From: a virus | Taxonomy: Duplodnaviria > Heunggongvirae > Uroviricota > Caudoviricetes | Strand: one strand, 5' to 3' | DNA length: 13,815 nt | Virus record (IMG/VR): IMGVR_UViG_2778261151_000008 | Shown: positions 3,001-6,000 of the stretch, piece by piece | Numbering within the stretch: position 1 is the stretch's first letter | Layout of the letters: each line of letters begins with the position of its first letter | Position numbers: made by a program

Positions 3001-6000
3001 AGGGCGAGTTGGCCGGAAAAGTTGGCTCAACACCAGGCTATTTACGGCTGGTTTTCAATGGTTATAAAAAAGCCAGTTTTGTGCTGGCTAAAAAACTTGA
3101 GCAATGCACGTCAGGTGCAATTACGAAATCTGACTTAAGACCGGATATCTATCCGAAAGATTAACAGAACACCTTCAATTTTTAACCACAGAACGATGAG
3201 GCTAACCGTGGGTAAGCATCACTGGAAAGTAGAAAAACAGCCTGAGTGGTACGTGAAAGCTGTCAGAAAAACTATCGCGGCGTTGCCGGGGGGGTACGCT
3301 GAAGCTGCTGAGTGGCTAGATGTAACAGAGAACGCTTTATTCAACCGCCTTCGTGCAGATGGCGATCAGATTTTCCCGCTGGGATGGGCAATGATTTTAC
3401 AGCGCGCGGCTGGCACTCACTACATTGCGGATGCTGTCGCACAGTCTGCTGGTGGGGTGTTTGTATCGCTTCCTGAAATTGAGGAAGTAGAGAACGCCGA
3501 TATAAACCAGCGCCTGCTGGAAGTCATCGAACAGATCGGGAGTTACTCAAAGCAGATTCGTTCGGCAATCGAAGATGGGGTAGTGGAGCCACACGAGCAG
3601 ACAGCAATTAATGATGAGTTGTATCTGTCAATTTCGAAGCTCCAGGAGCATGCAGCACTGGTCTACAAAATCTTTTGCGCTCCAGAAAAGAGTGACGCCC
3701 GCGAGTGTGCAGCTCCGGGCGTCGTGGCGTTTTGTGTCTGTGGAGAAACTAACGCATGAACAGTTTAACGGCAAATAACCGTTTGTCGCAACAGCTGGTG
3801 GTCAGCGTCGCTGAACACCTGTTGTTACGGCATGAATGCAGATTACCAAATCTCCTGGCTGTAAGTAACCACAGAGAACTTTACCTGACTGTGGGGGGCG
3901 AGTTGTGCAGGAACTTAACCGCTGGTTTCGTGACGGAAGAGGACTTTATGTTCATGTTATTCGTTGGGAGCCAGAAACACAGCGCGTTATCTATCTTCGC
4001 AAAGACTACCCGCATGAGTGCTTTAGTCCTTTGTGGAAATTCAGGCGTGATTTTGTTGAGTGTGAAGGACCACCAGCACATTGATTCTGCCATTCCGGGA
4101 CGTTACACTGTTCAGGCACCTTATAAAGCGGGTGCCGGGATTGGCGTCCTGGAATTGATCAAGGCGATATATGACGCGCCAGCGTCTTTTTTATCGTCCG
4201 CATTTGCTCACATTAAAGTTATGGTGGGCTGGGCGGGGGCATCGAAAGATGCGCCGGTTTCCTTGATCACCGGTTACGCCAACCCCGTTCAGTTCACCAC
4301 CAGCGAAATTGGCGTTTCCGGTGGTGGAAATATTTCACCGATCAAGGAGGCTGCCATCATGGCTACTGTCCCAGCCCTCACTCGTCTGAATGATGAAGAC
4401 TTACATAAACTCAGTTATGTAACTACTGCACTACGTGCTCTGCGCAAGGTAACTCTTTCGGATCCGCAGGCACATCAGGTTCTGGTAGAAACCCTTCTTA
4501 ACTTGCAAGCTGAACGTATTCGTCTGGCGGATAAGGCTAATTTTCATATTCACCGTCTCCTGAATATCAGCGGAGGGCATCGTCATGCTTAATCCGTTGC
4601 TCCTCAACATTTACCGTTTATTTCAGCGTAAAAAAATATCAACACCCACAGTTGGGCAGTGGTACACCACGCCAGCAGGGCATGTTCTACGTGTCAGCCT
4701 GGTTGACCGTGAATGTCAGAAGGTGATTTGTGAACCGCTGGGCCGTAATTACCGCGTCAGTATGCCGCTTATAGCCTTTCGCTCCGGAAAAAACATGAAG
4801 CATCTCGGAGGTGCAGCATGAGTATGGAGCTGATGGTTAAAGCGATGAAAATTCGAGTGGGTAATCCATTGCGAAAACTGGTTCTGATCAAGCTGGCTGA
4901 TAATGCCAGCGATCAGGGTGAGTGCTGGCCCAGCTACCAGCATATTGCTGACCAGTGCGAGATTAGCAAACGTTCTGTGATGAATCATATTGCGGCCCTT
5001 TGTGATTCCGGGCTGGTAAAAAAAGTCACCCGGAAAGGTGAAAAAGGTAACTCAAGTAATATCTATCTCCTTCATCTGGATGGTGCAGGAGATTCACTAG
5101 GGGGTAGTGCAAATAATTCACTATCTGGTGCAGCAAATTCACCAGGTAGTGCAGGAGTTGCACCAGGGGGTAGTGCAGGAGATTCACCCAGAACCAGTAA
5201 CTCTTTTGAACCAGTCAAAGAACCAGTCAATGAACCAATGGCTGTTGGTGCATCTGCTGATGAGTCTGTGCGAGTTCGTTCAAACCGATCGGAATACTCT
5301 CCGGAGTTTGAGCAGGCATGGCTGTCATACCCCAAACGTGCTGGTGGCAATTCAAAATCTGCAGCCTTCAAAGCCTGGAAAGCCCGTTTGAATGAAGGAG
5401 TAAACCCCGAAACCATGCTGGAAGGTGTGAAACGCTACGCGGGTTGGGTATCTGCGATGGGCAATAGCGGCACACAATTTGTGAAACAGGCTGTCACGTT
5501 CTTTGGTCCGGATCGTCATTTCGAAGAATCCTGGGAAGTTCCTGCGGTATCTGCAGCCAGACGCGAGGACCCGTACTTCAAAGCCAGTTACGACAACGTG
5601 GACTACAGCCAGATCCCGGCAGGATTCAGGGGGTGATCATGAGTCTTTTGAATGCAGTTCAGAAATTCATTGAAGCCCATCCGGGGTGTACTTCCGGAGA
5701 CATTGCGGATGCTTTTGCTGGTTACTCACGGCAGCGCGTTCTGCAGTCAGCAAGCAAGTTACGTCAGAGTGGGCGTGTGGCTCACCGTTGTGAAGGAGAT
5801 ACACGCAGACATTTCCCGCGCCTGACTGAGAGAGCGCAAGAGCCGGAACCACAATCTGTTCGTGAAACCAGACCTGTGCGCAATTTCTATGTCGGCACTA
5901 ACGATCCCCGTGTGATTTTGTGCCTGACCCGCCAGGCTGAAGAACTGGAGTCCAGGGGCTTATACCGTCGTGCTGCAACGGTGTGGATGGCGGCATTCCG

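What the first reader, a model, noticed from the sequence alone, without database searches (positions are those of the whole stretch)
3756..4821. Two translationally coupled genes of unknown function inserted between cII and the replication initiator
In lambda, cII is followed directly by O. Here a 278-aa and a 78-aa ORF intervene. Both have good RBSs and overlapping stop/start junctions (ATGA at 3756-3759, an 8-nt overlap at 4585-4592, ATGA at 4818-4821), so they are very probably expressed with the replication genes. Neither has motifs I can assign. The 278-aa ORF also contains an in-frame ATG at 4369 preceded by a strong AAGGAGG, so it may produce a nested 74-aa product or be two fused genes.
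Basis: seen in the sequence. Interest (0 to 1): 0.55.

Follow-up and report, generated by a model that had tools for sequence, protein, structure and literature searches.

The report
P4-type RNA immunity switch, mis-annotated as protein
The "278-aa gene" is mostly a translated leader that carries two small regulatory RNAs (an antisense RNA and its decoy) controlling the short gene nested at its end; it also overlaps a separate small gene in another frame, so this is a known kind of phage RNA switch, here placed in front of the replication genes of a lambda-like prophage.

Summary
Both ORFs and their overlapping junctions exist, but the internal ATG is at 4359, not 4369, and the nested product is 77 aa, not 74. 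(1) A 59-aa DUF4222/RgdR-family gene lies at 3905-4084 in another frame, and it is the frame under purifying selection there. (2) Two full-length Rfam RNAs lie inside the long ORF: isrK/seqA-like (4116-4192) and C4/CI-like antisense RNA (4217-4304). (3) The Pfam "Ash" match coincides with these RNA elements.

Across at least 8 sequence classes, the C4 loops covary three ways with target sites a1/b1 (in isrK) and a2/b2. Site a2 overlaps the AAGGAGG Shine-Dalgarno of ATG 4359. The long frame shows no amino-acid-level selection, yet it has no stop codon in any variant.

This matches the phage P4 immunity region (PLE-seqA-CI-seqC, with kil nested in eta) and the Gifsy-1 isrK locus. The payload differs: a 77-aa helical protein here, a Rha-family regulator in phage mEp460 and a Kil-like protein in P4. 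The 78-aa ORF is a real gene with an SH3-like barrel fold, coupled to the replication initiator.

Verdict: a new member of a known kind, of moderate interest.

The parts
3196..3759 (+). ymfL, the cII-like regulator gene (context). Its stop codon overlaps the start of the long ORF (ATGA).
   Evidence: Pfam Phage_CP76 E=8.5e-15. NCBIfam YmfL E=4.7e-50. Annotated ymfL in RefSeq.
3756..4592 (+). Long ORF (278 aa), the counterpart of P4 eta and the source of the 'Ash family' annotation. It is kept open, but its first ~200 codons are not conserved as protein. It reads across the DUF4222 gene, the internal promoter, isrK, C4 and the a2/b2 targets, and ends as the nested 77-aa gene.
   Evidence: 0 stops in 201 codons against 8 and 13 in the other frames. 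0 stops in 9 class representatives (799 codons) against 41 and 20. No codon periodicity: S:N 2:17 in 3905-4046, 10:26 in 3760-3904, 56:145 in 4085-4358. Pfam Phage_ASH covers aa 117-210, and the same domain covers seqA to CI in P4 Eta.
3905..4084 (+). DUF4222 (RgdR-family) gene: 59 aa, GTG start, in a different frame from the long ORF.
   Evidence: Pfam PF13973 51.1 bits against cutoff 27; phrog_1343 full length, E=1e-36. S:N 12:6 in its own frame, with 11 of 18 variable sites at codon position 3. Annotated by PGAP. Stand-alone gene in L166 and L168.
4081..4109 (+). Putative constitutive internal promoter, the counterpart of P4 PLE and Gifsy-1 PisrK: TTGATT (4081-4086), 17-nt spacer, TACACT (4104-4109), with the predicted start near 4116.
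   Evidence: Inferred from the sequence. The -10 block is nearly invariant in alignment A2. The Rfam isrK match starts at 4116. It scores 8 of 12, below the 9 of 12 the promoter scan requires.
4116..4192 (+). isrK / seqA-like RNA. It carries decoy or target sites b1 (4141-4147) and a1 (4156-4164), and ends in an intrinsic terminator (stem 4173-4186, U-run 4187-4192).
   Evidence: Rfam RF01394 64.2 bits (gathering score 50), full length. Terminator scan. a1-a' is 97% paired with 8 of 9 pairs compensatory; b1-b' is 100% paired with 4 of 7 compensatory.
4217..4304 (+). C4 / CI-type antisense RNA, with recognition loops a' (4260-4268) and b' (4276-4282). It contains ATG 4221, the position of Gifsy-1 orf45, which is in frame with the long ORF.
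   Evidence: Rfam RF01695 82.3 bits (gathering score 45), full length. Stems are 100% paired across 19 variants, with 10 pairs showing changes on both sides.
4309..4361 (+). Regulated translation-initiation region: b2 (4309-4315), a2 (4340-4348), Shine-Dalgarno AAGGAGG (4344-4350), ATG 4359-4361.
   Evidence: a'-a2 is 98% paired with 7 of 9 pairs compensatory; slid controls give 40-45%. GATCAAGG occurs only at a1, a' and a2 in the window. The start region is invariant. In the predicted fold of the read-through RNA this region is paired with the C4 loops; z=-5.5.
4359..4592 (+). Nested 77-aa gene in the position of P4 kil, and the payload of the RNA switch. Predicted to be a helical hairpin.
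   Evidence: S:N 12:11 in its own frame and intact in all 59 relatives. Homologues at 33-50% identity always follow the 'Ash' segment. AF2 pLDDT 84, two long helices. No similarity to P4 Kil. No Pfam or NCBIfam match.
4585..4821 (+). 78-aa gene (phrog_1153), overlapping the 77-aa gene by 8 nt and the replication initiator by ATGA. Predicted N-terminal helix plus a small SH3-like beta-barrel. Possibly a distant DUF4222 relative.
   Evidence: phrog_1153 full length, E=1.5e-40. S:N 18:19 with 18 of 35 variable sites at position 3, against 7:28 in the other frame. AF2 pLDDT 79. Weak KOW/Tudor/SH3 and DUF1653-like fold hits. Weak links to DUF4222: BLASTP E=0.017, PHROG cross-hit E=0.008, hhalign E=0.032.
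4818..5636 (+). Replication initiator, O/DnaD-like (context), and the first replication gene downstream of the switch.
   Evidence: phrog_270 E=1.6e-87; Pfam HTH_36 and DnaD_N.

Best explanation
Region 3756-4821 is a P4-type antisense-RNA immunity module. It sits in the early rightward operon of an SfV-like (CPS-53 type) lambdoid prophage, between the cII-like gene ymfL and the replication genes.

Shown by the evidence here:
- An isrK/seqA-like RNA with its own terminator (4116-4192) is followed by a C4/CI-like RNA (4217-4304).
- The C4 loops a' and b' are complementary to a1/b1 inside isrK and to a2/b2 just downstream.
- a2 overlaps the Shine-Dalgarno sequence of ATG 4359.

Inferred, by analogy with P4, P1 and Gifsy-1:
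- In the lysogen, a constitutive internal promoter (around 4081-4109) makes short isrK RNA and some read-through transcript.
- The read-through transcript yields C4 RNA.
- C4 pairs with b2/a2 and blocks translation of the nested 77-aa gene. Untranslated RNA is then terminated, so the 78-aa gene and the replication genes stay off.
- isrK RNA carries the same sites and acts as a decoy for C4.
- After induction, transcripts from the early promoter arrive with ribosomes already translating the long 278-aa frame, coupled to ymfL by ATGA. Translation across isrK, C4 and a2/b2 prevents RNA folding, pairing and termination, so these transcripts are insensitive to the immunity.

Consequences:
- The long ORF is selected to stay open, not for its sequence. 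This is why a real DUF4222/RgdR-family gene (3905-4084) can lie inside it in another frame.
- The 78-aa ORF is a genuine small beta-barrel protein gene, translationally coupled to the replication initiator.
For: RNA identity and pairing:
- Rfam matches are full length and above gathering scores: C4 82.3 bits against 45, isrK 64.2 against 50.
- Covariation over 19 variants in at least 8 specificity classes: C4 stems 100% paired; a'-a2 98%, a1-a' 97%, b1-b' 100% paired, most pairs with changes on both sides. Slid controls give 30-50%.
- The sequence from GGAGG to ATG is invariant.

Coding evidence:
- The 'Ash' frame has no codon periodicity across isrK-C4.
- That frame nevertheless has 0 stops in 799 codons, against 41 and 20 in the other frames.
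- In L166 it stays open through 249 codons antisense to an inserted toxin-antitoxin cassette.
- The DUF4222 frame is under purifying selection.
- The 77-aa and 78-aa ORFs show coding-type substitution patterns.

Comparison with known systems:
- P4 has the identical layout. Pfam Ash covers the seqA-CI part of Eta, and kil starts at 'EAAIMAT'.
- The P4 mechanism is summarised in PMC10111431, citing Forti 1999 and Sabbattini 1995.
- The Gifsy-1 isrK/STnc1160/anrP experiments are in PMC4825925.
- In mEp460 and ST64B the same ATG starts a complete Rha-family protein.
- Locus L168, which lacks the Ash ORF, has no isrK or C4.
Against: - No expression data exist for this phage. The promoter matches only 8 of 12 consensus positions and was not called by the scan.
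- The start of the long ORF cannot be fixed. PGAP starts it at GTG 4047. Segment 3760-3904 shows no signature in any frame. In L168 the same alternative frame is open across the spacer and most of the DUF4222 gene without any C4 module, so openness upstream of 4047 may partly be inherited or chance.
- No Rho-dependent terminator could be located.
- The 77-aa protein is unrelated to P4 Kil, and its own activity is unknown.
- In Gifsy-1 the experimentally supported model is translation of a short upstream ORF from the AUG inside the C4 segment, activated by IsrK, not a long eta-type ORF.
- Control of the replication genes by polarity is inferred only from gene order and overlapping junctions.
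Confidence: 0.75

Rival explanations
1. The 278-aa ORF (or the 181-aa version from GTG 4047) encodes a genuine 'Ash family' regulatory protein whose conserved domain acts as a protein. On this view the Rfam hits are incidental.
For: - Pfam Phage_ASH match, E=1.6e-18.
- Annotated as a transcriptional regulator or ash family protein in SfV, 2H10 and RefSeq.
- The frame is open in every variant, and the two indels seen are multiples of 3.
Against: - No excess of third-position or synonymous change: 52:50:48 by codon position, S:N 56:145; in the closer set 9:34 with position 3 the lowest.
- The amino-acid sequence between the conserved RNA blocks is unrelated between classes.
- The 'domain' sits at arbitrary positions, and in up to 3 copies, in predicted proteins of 52-821 aa.
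- The conserved columns are exactly the RNA stems and loops, with compensatory base changes.
- In P4 the domain is the seqA-CI stretch of Eta.
Confidence: 0.05
2. The long frame upstream of ATG 4359 is never translated. The locus would then be only: the DUF4222 gene, non-coding isrK and C4 RNAs, the 77-aa gene and the 78-aa gene. The open frame would be a by-product.
For: - No amino-acid-level constraint anywhere in 3756-4358 in that frame.
- The DUF4222 gene occupies another frame at 3905-4084.
- The same alternative frame is open across the spacer and DUF4222 in L168, which has no C4 module.
Against: - 0 stops in 799 codons over 9 specificity classes, against 41 and 20 in the other frames. 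Only 2% of shuffles of 4085-4358 are open in a given frame, and none for 3756-4358.
- The frame is open through 249 antisense codons of an inserted cassette in L166.
- The start overlaps the stop of the upstream gene (ATGA) in two unrelated contexts, ymfL and KilA-N.
- In P4, translation of eta is reported to be required for read-through (PMC10111431).
Confidence: 0.17
3. Gifsy-1-type variant. The relevant translated leader is a short upstream ORF starting at ATG 4221 inside the C4 segment (the orf45 position), activated by isrK RNA in trans. Here it would give a 123-aa N-terminally extended isoform, because it is in frame with ATG 4359. This is not exclusive of the main explanation.
For: - 'UUAUGGUGGG' is invariant.
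- orf45 translation and coupling to the downstream antirepressor were shown experimentally in Gifsy-1.
- phrog_4908 (123 aa) starts at this ATG.
Against: - The AUG lies in the 5' strand of the conserved C4 outer stem and has no obvious Shine-Dalgarno sequence.
- There is no stop before ATG 4359 here, unlike the AUGA junction in Gifsy-1.
- The frame is also open for 155 codons upstream of this AUG, which a short upstream ORF does not explain.
Confidence: 0.15

Closest known systems
Phage P4 immunity region: PLE - seqA - CI RNA - seqC - kil nested in eta (Sabbattini 1995; Forti 1999; summarised in PMC10111431)
   Same: - Same order of elements. isrK-type and C4-type Rfam hits occur in P4 at 8692-8615 and 8507-8420.
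- A long ORF spans them, and its Pfam Ash domain is the RNA segment.
- The nested gene begins at the conserved 'EAAIMAT' just after the downstream target.
- The long ORF starts on the stop of the upstream gene.
- Replication genes lie downstream.
   Different: - The host element is a lambdoid prophage with its own LexA-type CI repressor, Cro and a cII-like gene, not a satellite.
- The nested protein (77-aa helical hairpin) is unrelated to Kil.
- A DUF4222 gene is overprinted inside the long ORF.
- The upstream activating promoter would be the early pR-type promoter rather than PLL.
- The termination site was not identified.
Gifsy-1 isrK - orf45/STnc1160 - anrP locus (Hershko-Shalev 2016, PMC4825925)
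   Same: - isrK family member with terminator, followed by a C4-like segment (STnc1160), followed by a gene whose translation is gated by the RNA.
- Lambdoid prophage context.
- The authors themselves liken IsrK to P4 seqA and STnc1160 to CI.
- mEp460/ST64B-type relatives of the window carry a Rha-family regulatory protein as payload (annotated as an antirepressor in several phage records), comparable to the AnrP antirepressor payload of Gifsy-1.
   Different: - In the window the payload is a 77-aa protein, not an antirepressor.
- The orf45-position ATG is in frame with the payload, with no stop between them.
- The module lies between the cII-like and replication genes, not next to an antiterminator Q gene.
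Phage P1/P7 immI: c4 antisense RNA - icd - ant (Citron and Schuster 1990; recalled from memory)
   Same: - Same Rfam family, C4.
- Two-loop (a', b') recognition of two target pairs, with a2/b2 covering the ribosome-binding site of the first downstream gene.
- Specificity alleles define heteroimmunity, as with P1 against P7.
   Different: - No Icd-like protein here (no NCBIfam hit).
- No Ant protein in the window.
- The isrK-type terminator and the long overlapping ORF are P4-like, not P1-like.
RgdR (ECs1581), the DUF4222 prophage regulator of EHEC (Flockhart 2012, PMC3378721)
   Same: - The 59-aa ORF at 3905-4084 is a DUF4222 member.
- The RgdR-type 99-aa protein of L167 aligns at 34% identity.
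- Both are prophage-borne and lie near P4-type modules and replication genes.
   Different: - 59 aa rather than 99 aa.
- No RGD motif (the sequence is RDGRG).
- No C-terminal basic tail.
- No functional data.

Membership tests
Rfam RF01695, C4 antisense RNA | Covariance-model score at or above the gathering score, full-length match | tested here: met
   82.3 bits against 45, model positions 1-87, window 4217-4304.
Rfam RF01695, C4 antisense RNA | Outer stem plus two hairpins, maintained by compensatory changes | tested here: met
   27 stem pairs 100% paired in 19 variants; 10 pairs with changes on both sides.
Rfam RF01695, C4 antisense RNA | Loops a' and b' complementary to two target pairs (a1/b1 upstream, a2/b2 downstream), with a2/b2 at the ribosome-binding site of the next gene | tested here: met
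   Three-way covariation in at least 8 classes. a2 (4340-4348) overlaps the Shine-Dalgarno at 4344-4350.
Rfam RF01695, C4 antisense RNA | Mature RNA processed from a leader transcript (by RNase P in P1 and P4) | not testable with these tools
   Needs RNA analysis.
Rfam RF01394, isrK / P4 seqA-type RNA | Score at or above the gathering score, with a terminal Rho-independent terminator | tested here: met
   64.2 bits against 50, window 4116-4192. Hairpin 4173-4186 plus six U.
Rfam RF01394, isrK / P4 seqA-type RNA | Own promoter directly upstream (PisrK / PLE) | tested here: inconclusive
   TTGATT-17-TACACT matches 8 of 12 positions and was not reported by the scan, which requires 9 of 12. The -10 region is conserved in A2.
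P4 eta/kil nested genes | One long ORF spans seqA, CI and seqC and is kept open | tested here: met
   0 stops in the frame in 9 classes, against 41 and 20 in the other frames. Same in P4.
P4 eta/kil nested genes | Nested gene starts right after the downstream target, at a conserved start | tested here: met
   'EAAIMAT' in both the window and P4. The ATG is invariant.
P4 eta/kil nested genes | Nested product is homologous to Kil | tested here: not met
   BLASTP finds no alignment. Kil-like payloads do occur in other relatives, for example P0227.
P4 eta/kil nested genes | Translation of the long or nested ORF prevents Rho-dependent termination | not testable with these tools
   Needs nonsense mutants and a Rho inhibitor.
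Pfam PF10554, Phage_ASH | HMM score above the cutoff | tested here: met
   67.6 bits against 26, aa 117-210.
Pfam PF10554, Phage_ASH | Behaves as a protein domain (purifying selection on codons, consistent position in proteins) | tested here: not met
   No periodicity and an S:N ratio at or below a roughly neutral level. Arbitrary positions and copy number in predicted proteins.
Pfam PF13973, DUF4222 (RgdR family): 59-aa ORF 3905-4084 | HMM score above the cutoff, and the frame under purifying selection | tested here: met
   51.1 bits against 27. S:N 12:6, with 11 of 18 variable sites at position 3.
Pfam PF13973, DUF4222 (RgdR family): 59-aa ORF 3905-4084 | RGD motif, needed for RgdR activity | tested here: not met
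   The sequence has RDGRG. L167's 99-aa protein has RGD at residues 20-22.
Pfam PF13973, DUF4222: 78-aa ORF 4585-4821 | HMM score above the cutoff | tested here: not met
   No Pfam hit at E up to 10. Only weak similarity: E=0.017, 0.008 and 0.032. The beta-barrel fold is compatible but not specific.
P1 immI (c4-icd-ant) | Icd-like division inhibitor as the first regulated gene | tested here: not met
   No NCBIfam or Pfam hit for the 77-aa ORF.

The most novel reading that the evidence does not exclude
In SfV/CPS-53-type lambdoid prophages, the C4-like RNA is a second, RNA-based layer of immunity. It licenses replication: it gates the 77-aa gene and, by polarity, the 78-aa gene and the O-like initiator.

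The long 'Ash' ORF would be a sequence-free, translate-to-read-through device that the phage must keep open. This would hold even while it overprints a functional DUF4222 gene, and in one relative while it crosses an inserted toxin-antitoxin cassette.

The 8 or more covarying a/b specificity alleles would be maintained so that co-resident prophages do not cross-regulate.
Probability: 0.35. Interest if true: 0.65.

Novelty: new member of a known kind. Interest (0 to 1): 0.45.

Why it matters
- Annotation. 'Ash family protein' is annotated across these prophages: some part of the region matches in about 3,000 of 5,426 complete E. coli genomes. Its conserved core is an RNA switch that PGAP does not annotate. 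Functional inferences such as 'transcriptional regulator' drawn from the protein name are therefore unfounded.
- Phage biology. A P4-style RNA immunity and read-through device sits directly in front of lambdoid replication genes. This suggests a layer of replication or induction control beyond the CI repressor.
- Overlapping genes. The long ORF is a clear natural case of selection for translation itself rather than for a product, and it tolerates an overprinted gene in another frame.
- Engineering. The covarying a/b alleles form a ready-made set of probably orthogonal antisense-RNA and target pairs.

Tried and rejected
- Protein homology for the 278-aa ORF returned only close 278-aa copies. 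The search of cluster representatives was more useful, because it showed the Ash segment at arbitrary positions in predicted proteins.
- A homology search with the C-terminal 70 aa found only 7 near-identical proteins.
- The 78-aa family has no member with a Pfam domain. hhalign against a small DUF4222 alignment gave probability 1.6%, so I do not file it as DUF4222.
- Fold searches gave only generic results: helical-hairpin hits for the 77-aa model (best E=0.46), and generic SH3/KOW/Tudor or DUF1653-like hits for the 78-aa model. No function follows from these. The afdb50 library was unavailable.
- An oop-like antisense RNA or a structured element in the ymfL-DUF4222 spacer was considered. No promoter was found, and the fold z-score is -0.95. 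Rejected for lack of evidence.
- An Icd-like or Kil-like identity for the 77-aa protein was rejected.
- The SfV genome paper and Forti 1999 could not be read. The P4 mechanism is cited through PMC10111431.
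Full report
**Context.** The window is an SfV-like (CPS-53/KpLE1-type) lambdoid prophage of E. coli. The queried stretch is 99.3% identical to many E. coli chromosomes and 97.9% identical to Shigella phage SfV. The gene order is: a LexA-type repressor gene ymfK (2199-2873, minus strand), the cro-like gene ymfT, the cII-like gene ymfL (3196-3759), then the finding, then an O/DnaD-like replication initiator (4818-5636).

**Checking the observation.** The internal in-frame ATG that follows AAGGAGG (4344-4350) is at 4359, not 4369. 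The nested product is 77 aa, not 74. Public annotation is inconsistent:
- SfV calls the full 278-aa ORF (orf37).
- Phage 2H10 and RefSeq PGAP call a 181-aa 'ash family protein' from GTG 4047. PGAP also calls a 59-aa DUF4222 gene at 3905-4084 in another frame.
- mEp460 and ST64B-385-aa ORFs from the same ATGA start.

**Which frame is coding at the 5' end.** I aligned 98 distinct relatives. They have no indels between 3756 and 4300.
- In 3905-4046 the DUF4222 frame has 12 synonymous against 6 non-synonymous variant alleles, and 11 of 18 variable sites fall at its third codon position. The 278-aa frame has 2 against 17.
- The DUF4222 protein is almost invariant (9 variants in 98 sequences). The first 97 residues of the long ORF have 45 variants.
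- DUF4222 matches Pfam (51 bits against a cutoff of 27) and phrog_1343 over its full length.
- It is the family of RgdR, an experimentally studied prophage regulator (PMC3378721).
- It occurs as a stand-alone gene elsewhere. In L166 it follows a KilA-N gene. In L168 it lies directly upstream of a replication gene. In L167 a 99-aa RGD-containing form lies upstream of a RepA helicase gene.
- Segment 3760-3904 shows no periodicity in any frame (10 synonymous against 26 non-synonymous).

**The turning point: RNA genes inside the ORF.** An Rfam scan finds two full-length matches on the plus strand inside the long ORF: isrK (4116-4192, 64.2 bits, gathering score 50) and C4 antisense RNA (4217-4304, 82.3 bits, gathering score 45). 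isrK ends in an intrinsic terminator (4173-4192). The Pfam Ash match (aa 117-210, about nt 4104-4385) coincides with these elements.

The region has diversified into at least 8 classes, 68-99% identical, within an otherwise conserved backbone. An alignment of 19 variants (A2) shows textbook covariation.
- The C4 stems are 100% paired, with 10 pairs changed on both sides.
- Loop a' (4260-4268) pairs with a2 (4340-4348) in 98% of cells, with 7 of 9 pairs compensatory.
- Loop a' pairs with a1 (4156-4164, inside isrK) in 97% of cells, with 8 of 9 compensatory.
- Loop b' (4276-4282) pairs with b1 (4141-4147) in 100% of cells, with 4 of 7 compensatory. The five b'-b2 (4309-4315) pairs the alignment places cleanly are 96% paired, 3 of them compensatory.
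- Slid controls give 30-50% pairing.
- Site a2 overlaps the Shine-Dalgarno sequence, and the stretch from GGAGG to ATG 4359 is invariant.
- GATCAAGG occurs in the window only at a1, a' and a2.
- The read-through RNA 4116-4365 folds with z=-5.5, with the C4 loops paired to b2/a2 in cis.

**Is the 'Ash' frame translated?** Across 4085-4358 the variable sites are spread 52:50:48 over the codon positions. The synonymous to non-synonymous ratio is 56:145, and 9:34 in the closer set with the third position the lowest. The amino-acid sequence between the RNA blocks is unrelated between classes. In a search of 1.84 billion cluster representatives, the Ash segment appears at arbitrary positions, and in up to three copies, in predicted proteins of 52-821 aa. 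It is therefore not a protein domain in the usual sense.

The frame is nevertheless never interrupted.
- It has 0 stops in 9 class representatives (799 codons), against 41 and 20 in the other two frames.
- The window has 0 stops in 201 codons, against 8 and 13.
- Only 2% of shuffles of 4085-4358 are open in a given frame, and none of 20,000 shuffles of 3756-4358.
- In L166, the ORF starts with ATGA on the stop of a KilA-N gene, covers three tandem isrK-C4 units, and stays open through 249 codons antisense to an inserted RelE/HTH cassette. The other frames there have 10 and 14 stops.

The simplest reading is selection for the act of translation, not for a product.

**Comparison with P4.** Phage P4 (NC_001609) has the same layout. 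It has an isrK-type match (seqA, 8692-8615), a C4-type match (CI RNA, 8507-8420) and a long ORF (8812-8168). Residues 37-161 of that ORF are the Pfam Ash domain. Its last 65 residues begin 'EAAIMATTLTP', against 'EAAIMATVPAL' in the window. This matches what is described for eta and kil:
- Kil is the truncated form that is translated on read-through.
- Full-length Eta is translated only from an upstream promoter and is coupled to the upstream gene.
- Its translation prevents termination (PMC10111431, citing Forti 1999 and Sabbattini 1995).

That paper also states that the Rfam C4 and isrK models detect CI and seqA relatives.

In Gifsy-1, the isrK - orf45/STnc1160 - anrP locus is the same type of module. 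The authors liken IsrK to seqA and STnc1160 to CI. IsrK given in trans activates translation, and both RNAs are abundant in lysogens (PMC4825925; bioRxiv 787010). The orf45 AUG corresponds to the invariant ATG 4221, which here is in frame with ATG 4359.

**The payload genes.** The 77-aa nested ORF is intact in all 59 relatives examined and shows a coding-type pattern (12 synonymous against 11 non-synonymous). It has homologues at 33-50% identity that always follow an Ash segment. It is predicted to be a helical hairpin (pLDDT 84). It is unrelated to P4 Kil, has no family match and gives no informative fold hit.

In relatives, the same ATG starts a complete Rha-family protein (mEp460 and ST64B) or a Kil-like protein (P0227). 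DNA homology between the types ends about 20 nt after the ATG. The payload is therefore exchangeable.

The 78-aa ORF matches phrog_1153 over its full length. It has a coding-type pattern: 18 synonymous against 19 non-synonymous in its own frame, against 7:28 in the other frame. It is found upstream of the initiator gene in L166 as well. Its model is an N-terminal helix plus a small SH3-like barrel (pLDDT 79). Its similarity to DUF4222 is suggestive but unproven.

**Mechanism, shown and inferred.** Three things are shown: the identity and structure of the RNAs, their complementarity to two target pairs with one on the ribosome-binding site of ATG 4359, and the constraint that keeps the long ORF open. 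The rest is inferred by analogy:
- An internal promoter (TTGATT-17-TACACT, 4081-4109) makes isrK RNA and a C4 precursor in the lysogen.
- C4 blocks translation of the 77-aa gene, and termination then silences the 78-aa and replication genes.
- isrK RNA titrates C4.
- After induction, ribosomes translating the long ORF, coupled to ymfL, make early transcripts insensitive to this control.

Three things remain uncertain: the true start of the long ORF (3756, 4014 or 4047), the site of termination, and what the 59-aa, 77-aa and 78-aa proteins do.

**Verdict.** However, the locus is a member of a known class of phage RNA immunity switches, mis-annotated as an 'Ash family protein', with an overprinted DUF4222 gene. 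It is ordinary in kind. It is still useful as a correction to annotation, as an example of an ORF kept open only for translation, and as a natural set of covarying RNA specificities.

Noticed in passing
L166 2983-4884 (E. coli A34, NZ_CP028741): Three tandem isrK-C4 units (3898-4086, 4273-4458, 4639-4827) lie inside one 633-aa ORF. The ORF starts with ATGA on a KilA-N stop, overprints a DUF4222 gene and crosses an inverted RelE/HTH toxin-antitoxin cassette with 0 stops in 249 codons, against 10 and 14 in the other frames.
   Followed up: partly
window 4150-4350 and loci L085-L167 (alignment A2): At least 8 allelic specificity classes of the a1/a'/a2 and b1/b'/b2 sequences sit in an otherwise 95-99% conserved backbone. 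This suggests exchange or diversifying selection for heteroimmunity. Whether co-resident prophages carry different classes was not tested.
   Followed up: partly
L168 2951-3986; L167 4098-5794; window 4585-5636: Small DUF4222 or DUF4222-like genes repeatedly sit directly upstream of, and overlap, the first replication gene. This holds with three different replication proteins: an initiator with a phage C-terminal domain, a RepA helicase, and an O/DnaD-like initiator.
   Followed up: partly
window 3760-3904 against L168 2779-2950: The spacer between ymfL and DUF4222 has conserved islands (for example TGTT.CGG.ATGAATGCA and GTAACCACAG...TGTGGGGG) in an otherwise diverged relative. It is not significantly structured (z=-0.95) and shows no coding signature. 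Its role is unknown.
   Followed up: partly
one IMG/VR relative, equivalent to window 3966: One of 98 distinct sequences carries a nonsense change (W21*) in the DUF4222 gene. No relative has a stop in the overlapping long frame.
   Followed up: no
window 9494-9564 (+): Weak Rfam leader-like hits (Trp and Leu leader, E about 0.3) lie just downstream of the Q-like antiterminator gene (8637-9431). This may be the late-promoter leader and terminator region, or chance.
   Followed up: no
window 5633-6127, 6094-6453 and 6859-7668: Downstream of the initiator lie a PerC-family regulator (YfdN-like), a 119-aa ORF annotated 'LexA family transcriptional regulator' in the RefSeq relative L001 (not examined further here), and a 269-aa ORF that looked antirepressor-like by eye but was not tested against any family library. 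There is no obvious lambda P-type helicase loader.
   Followed up: no
RefSeq and phage records (L001, L002, L003, L005, L169): The same DNA is annotated five ways: 278-aa, 181-aa or 298-aa 'Rha', 383-aa, and with or without DUF4222. None of the records annotates the isrK and C4 RNAs.
   Followed up: yes
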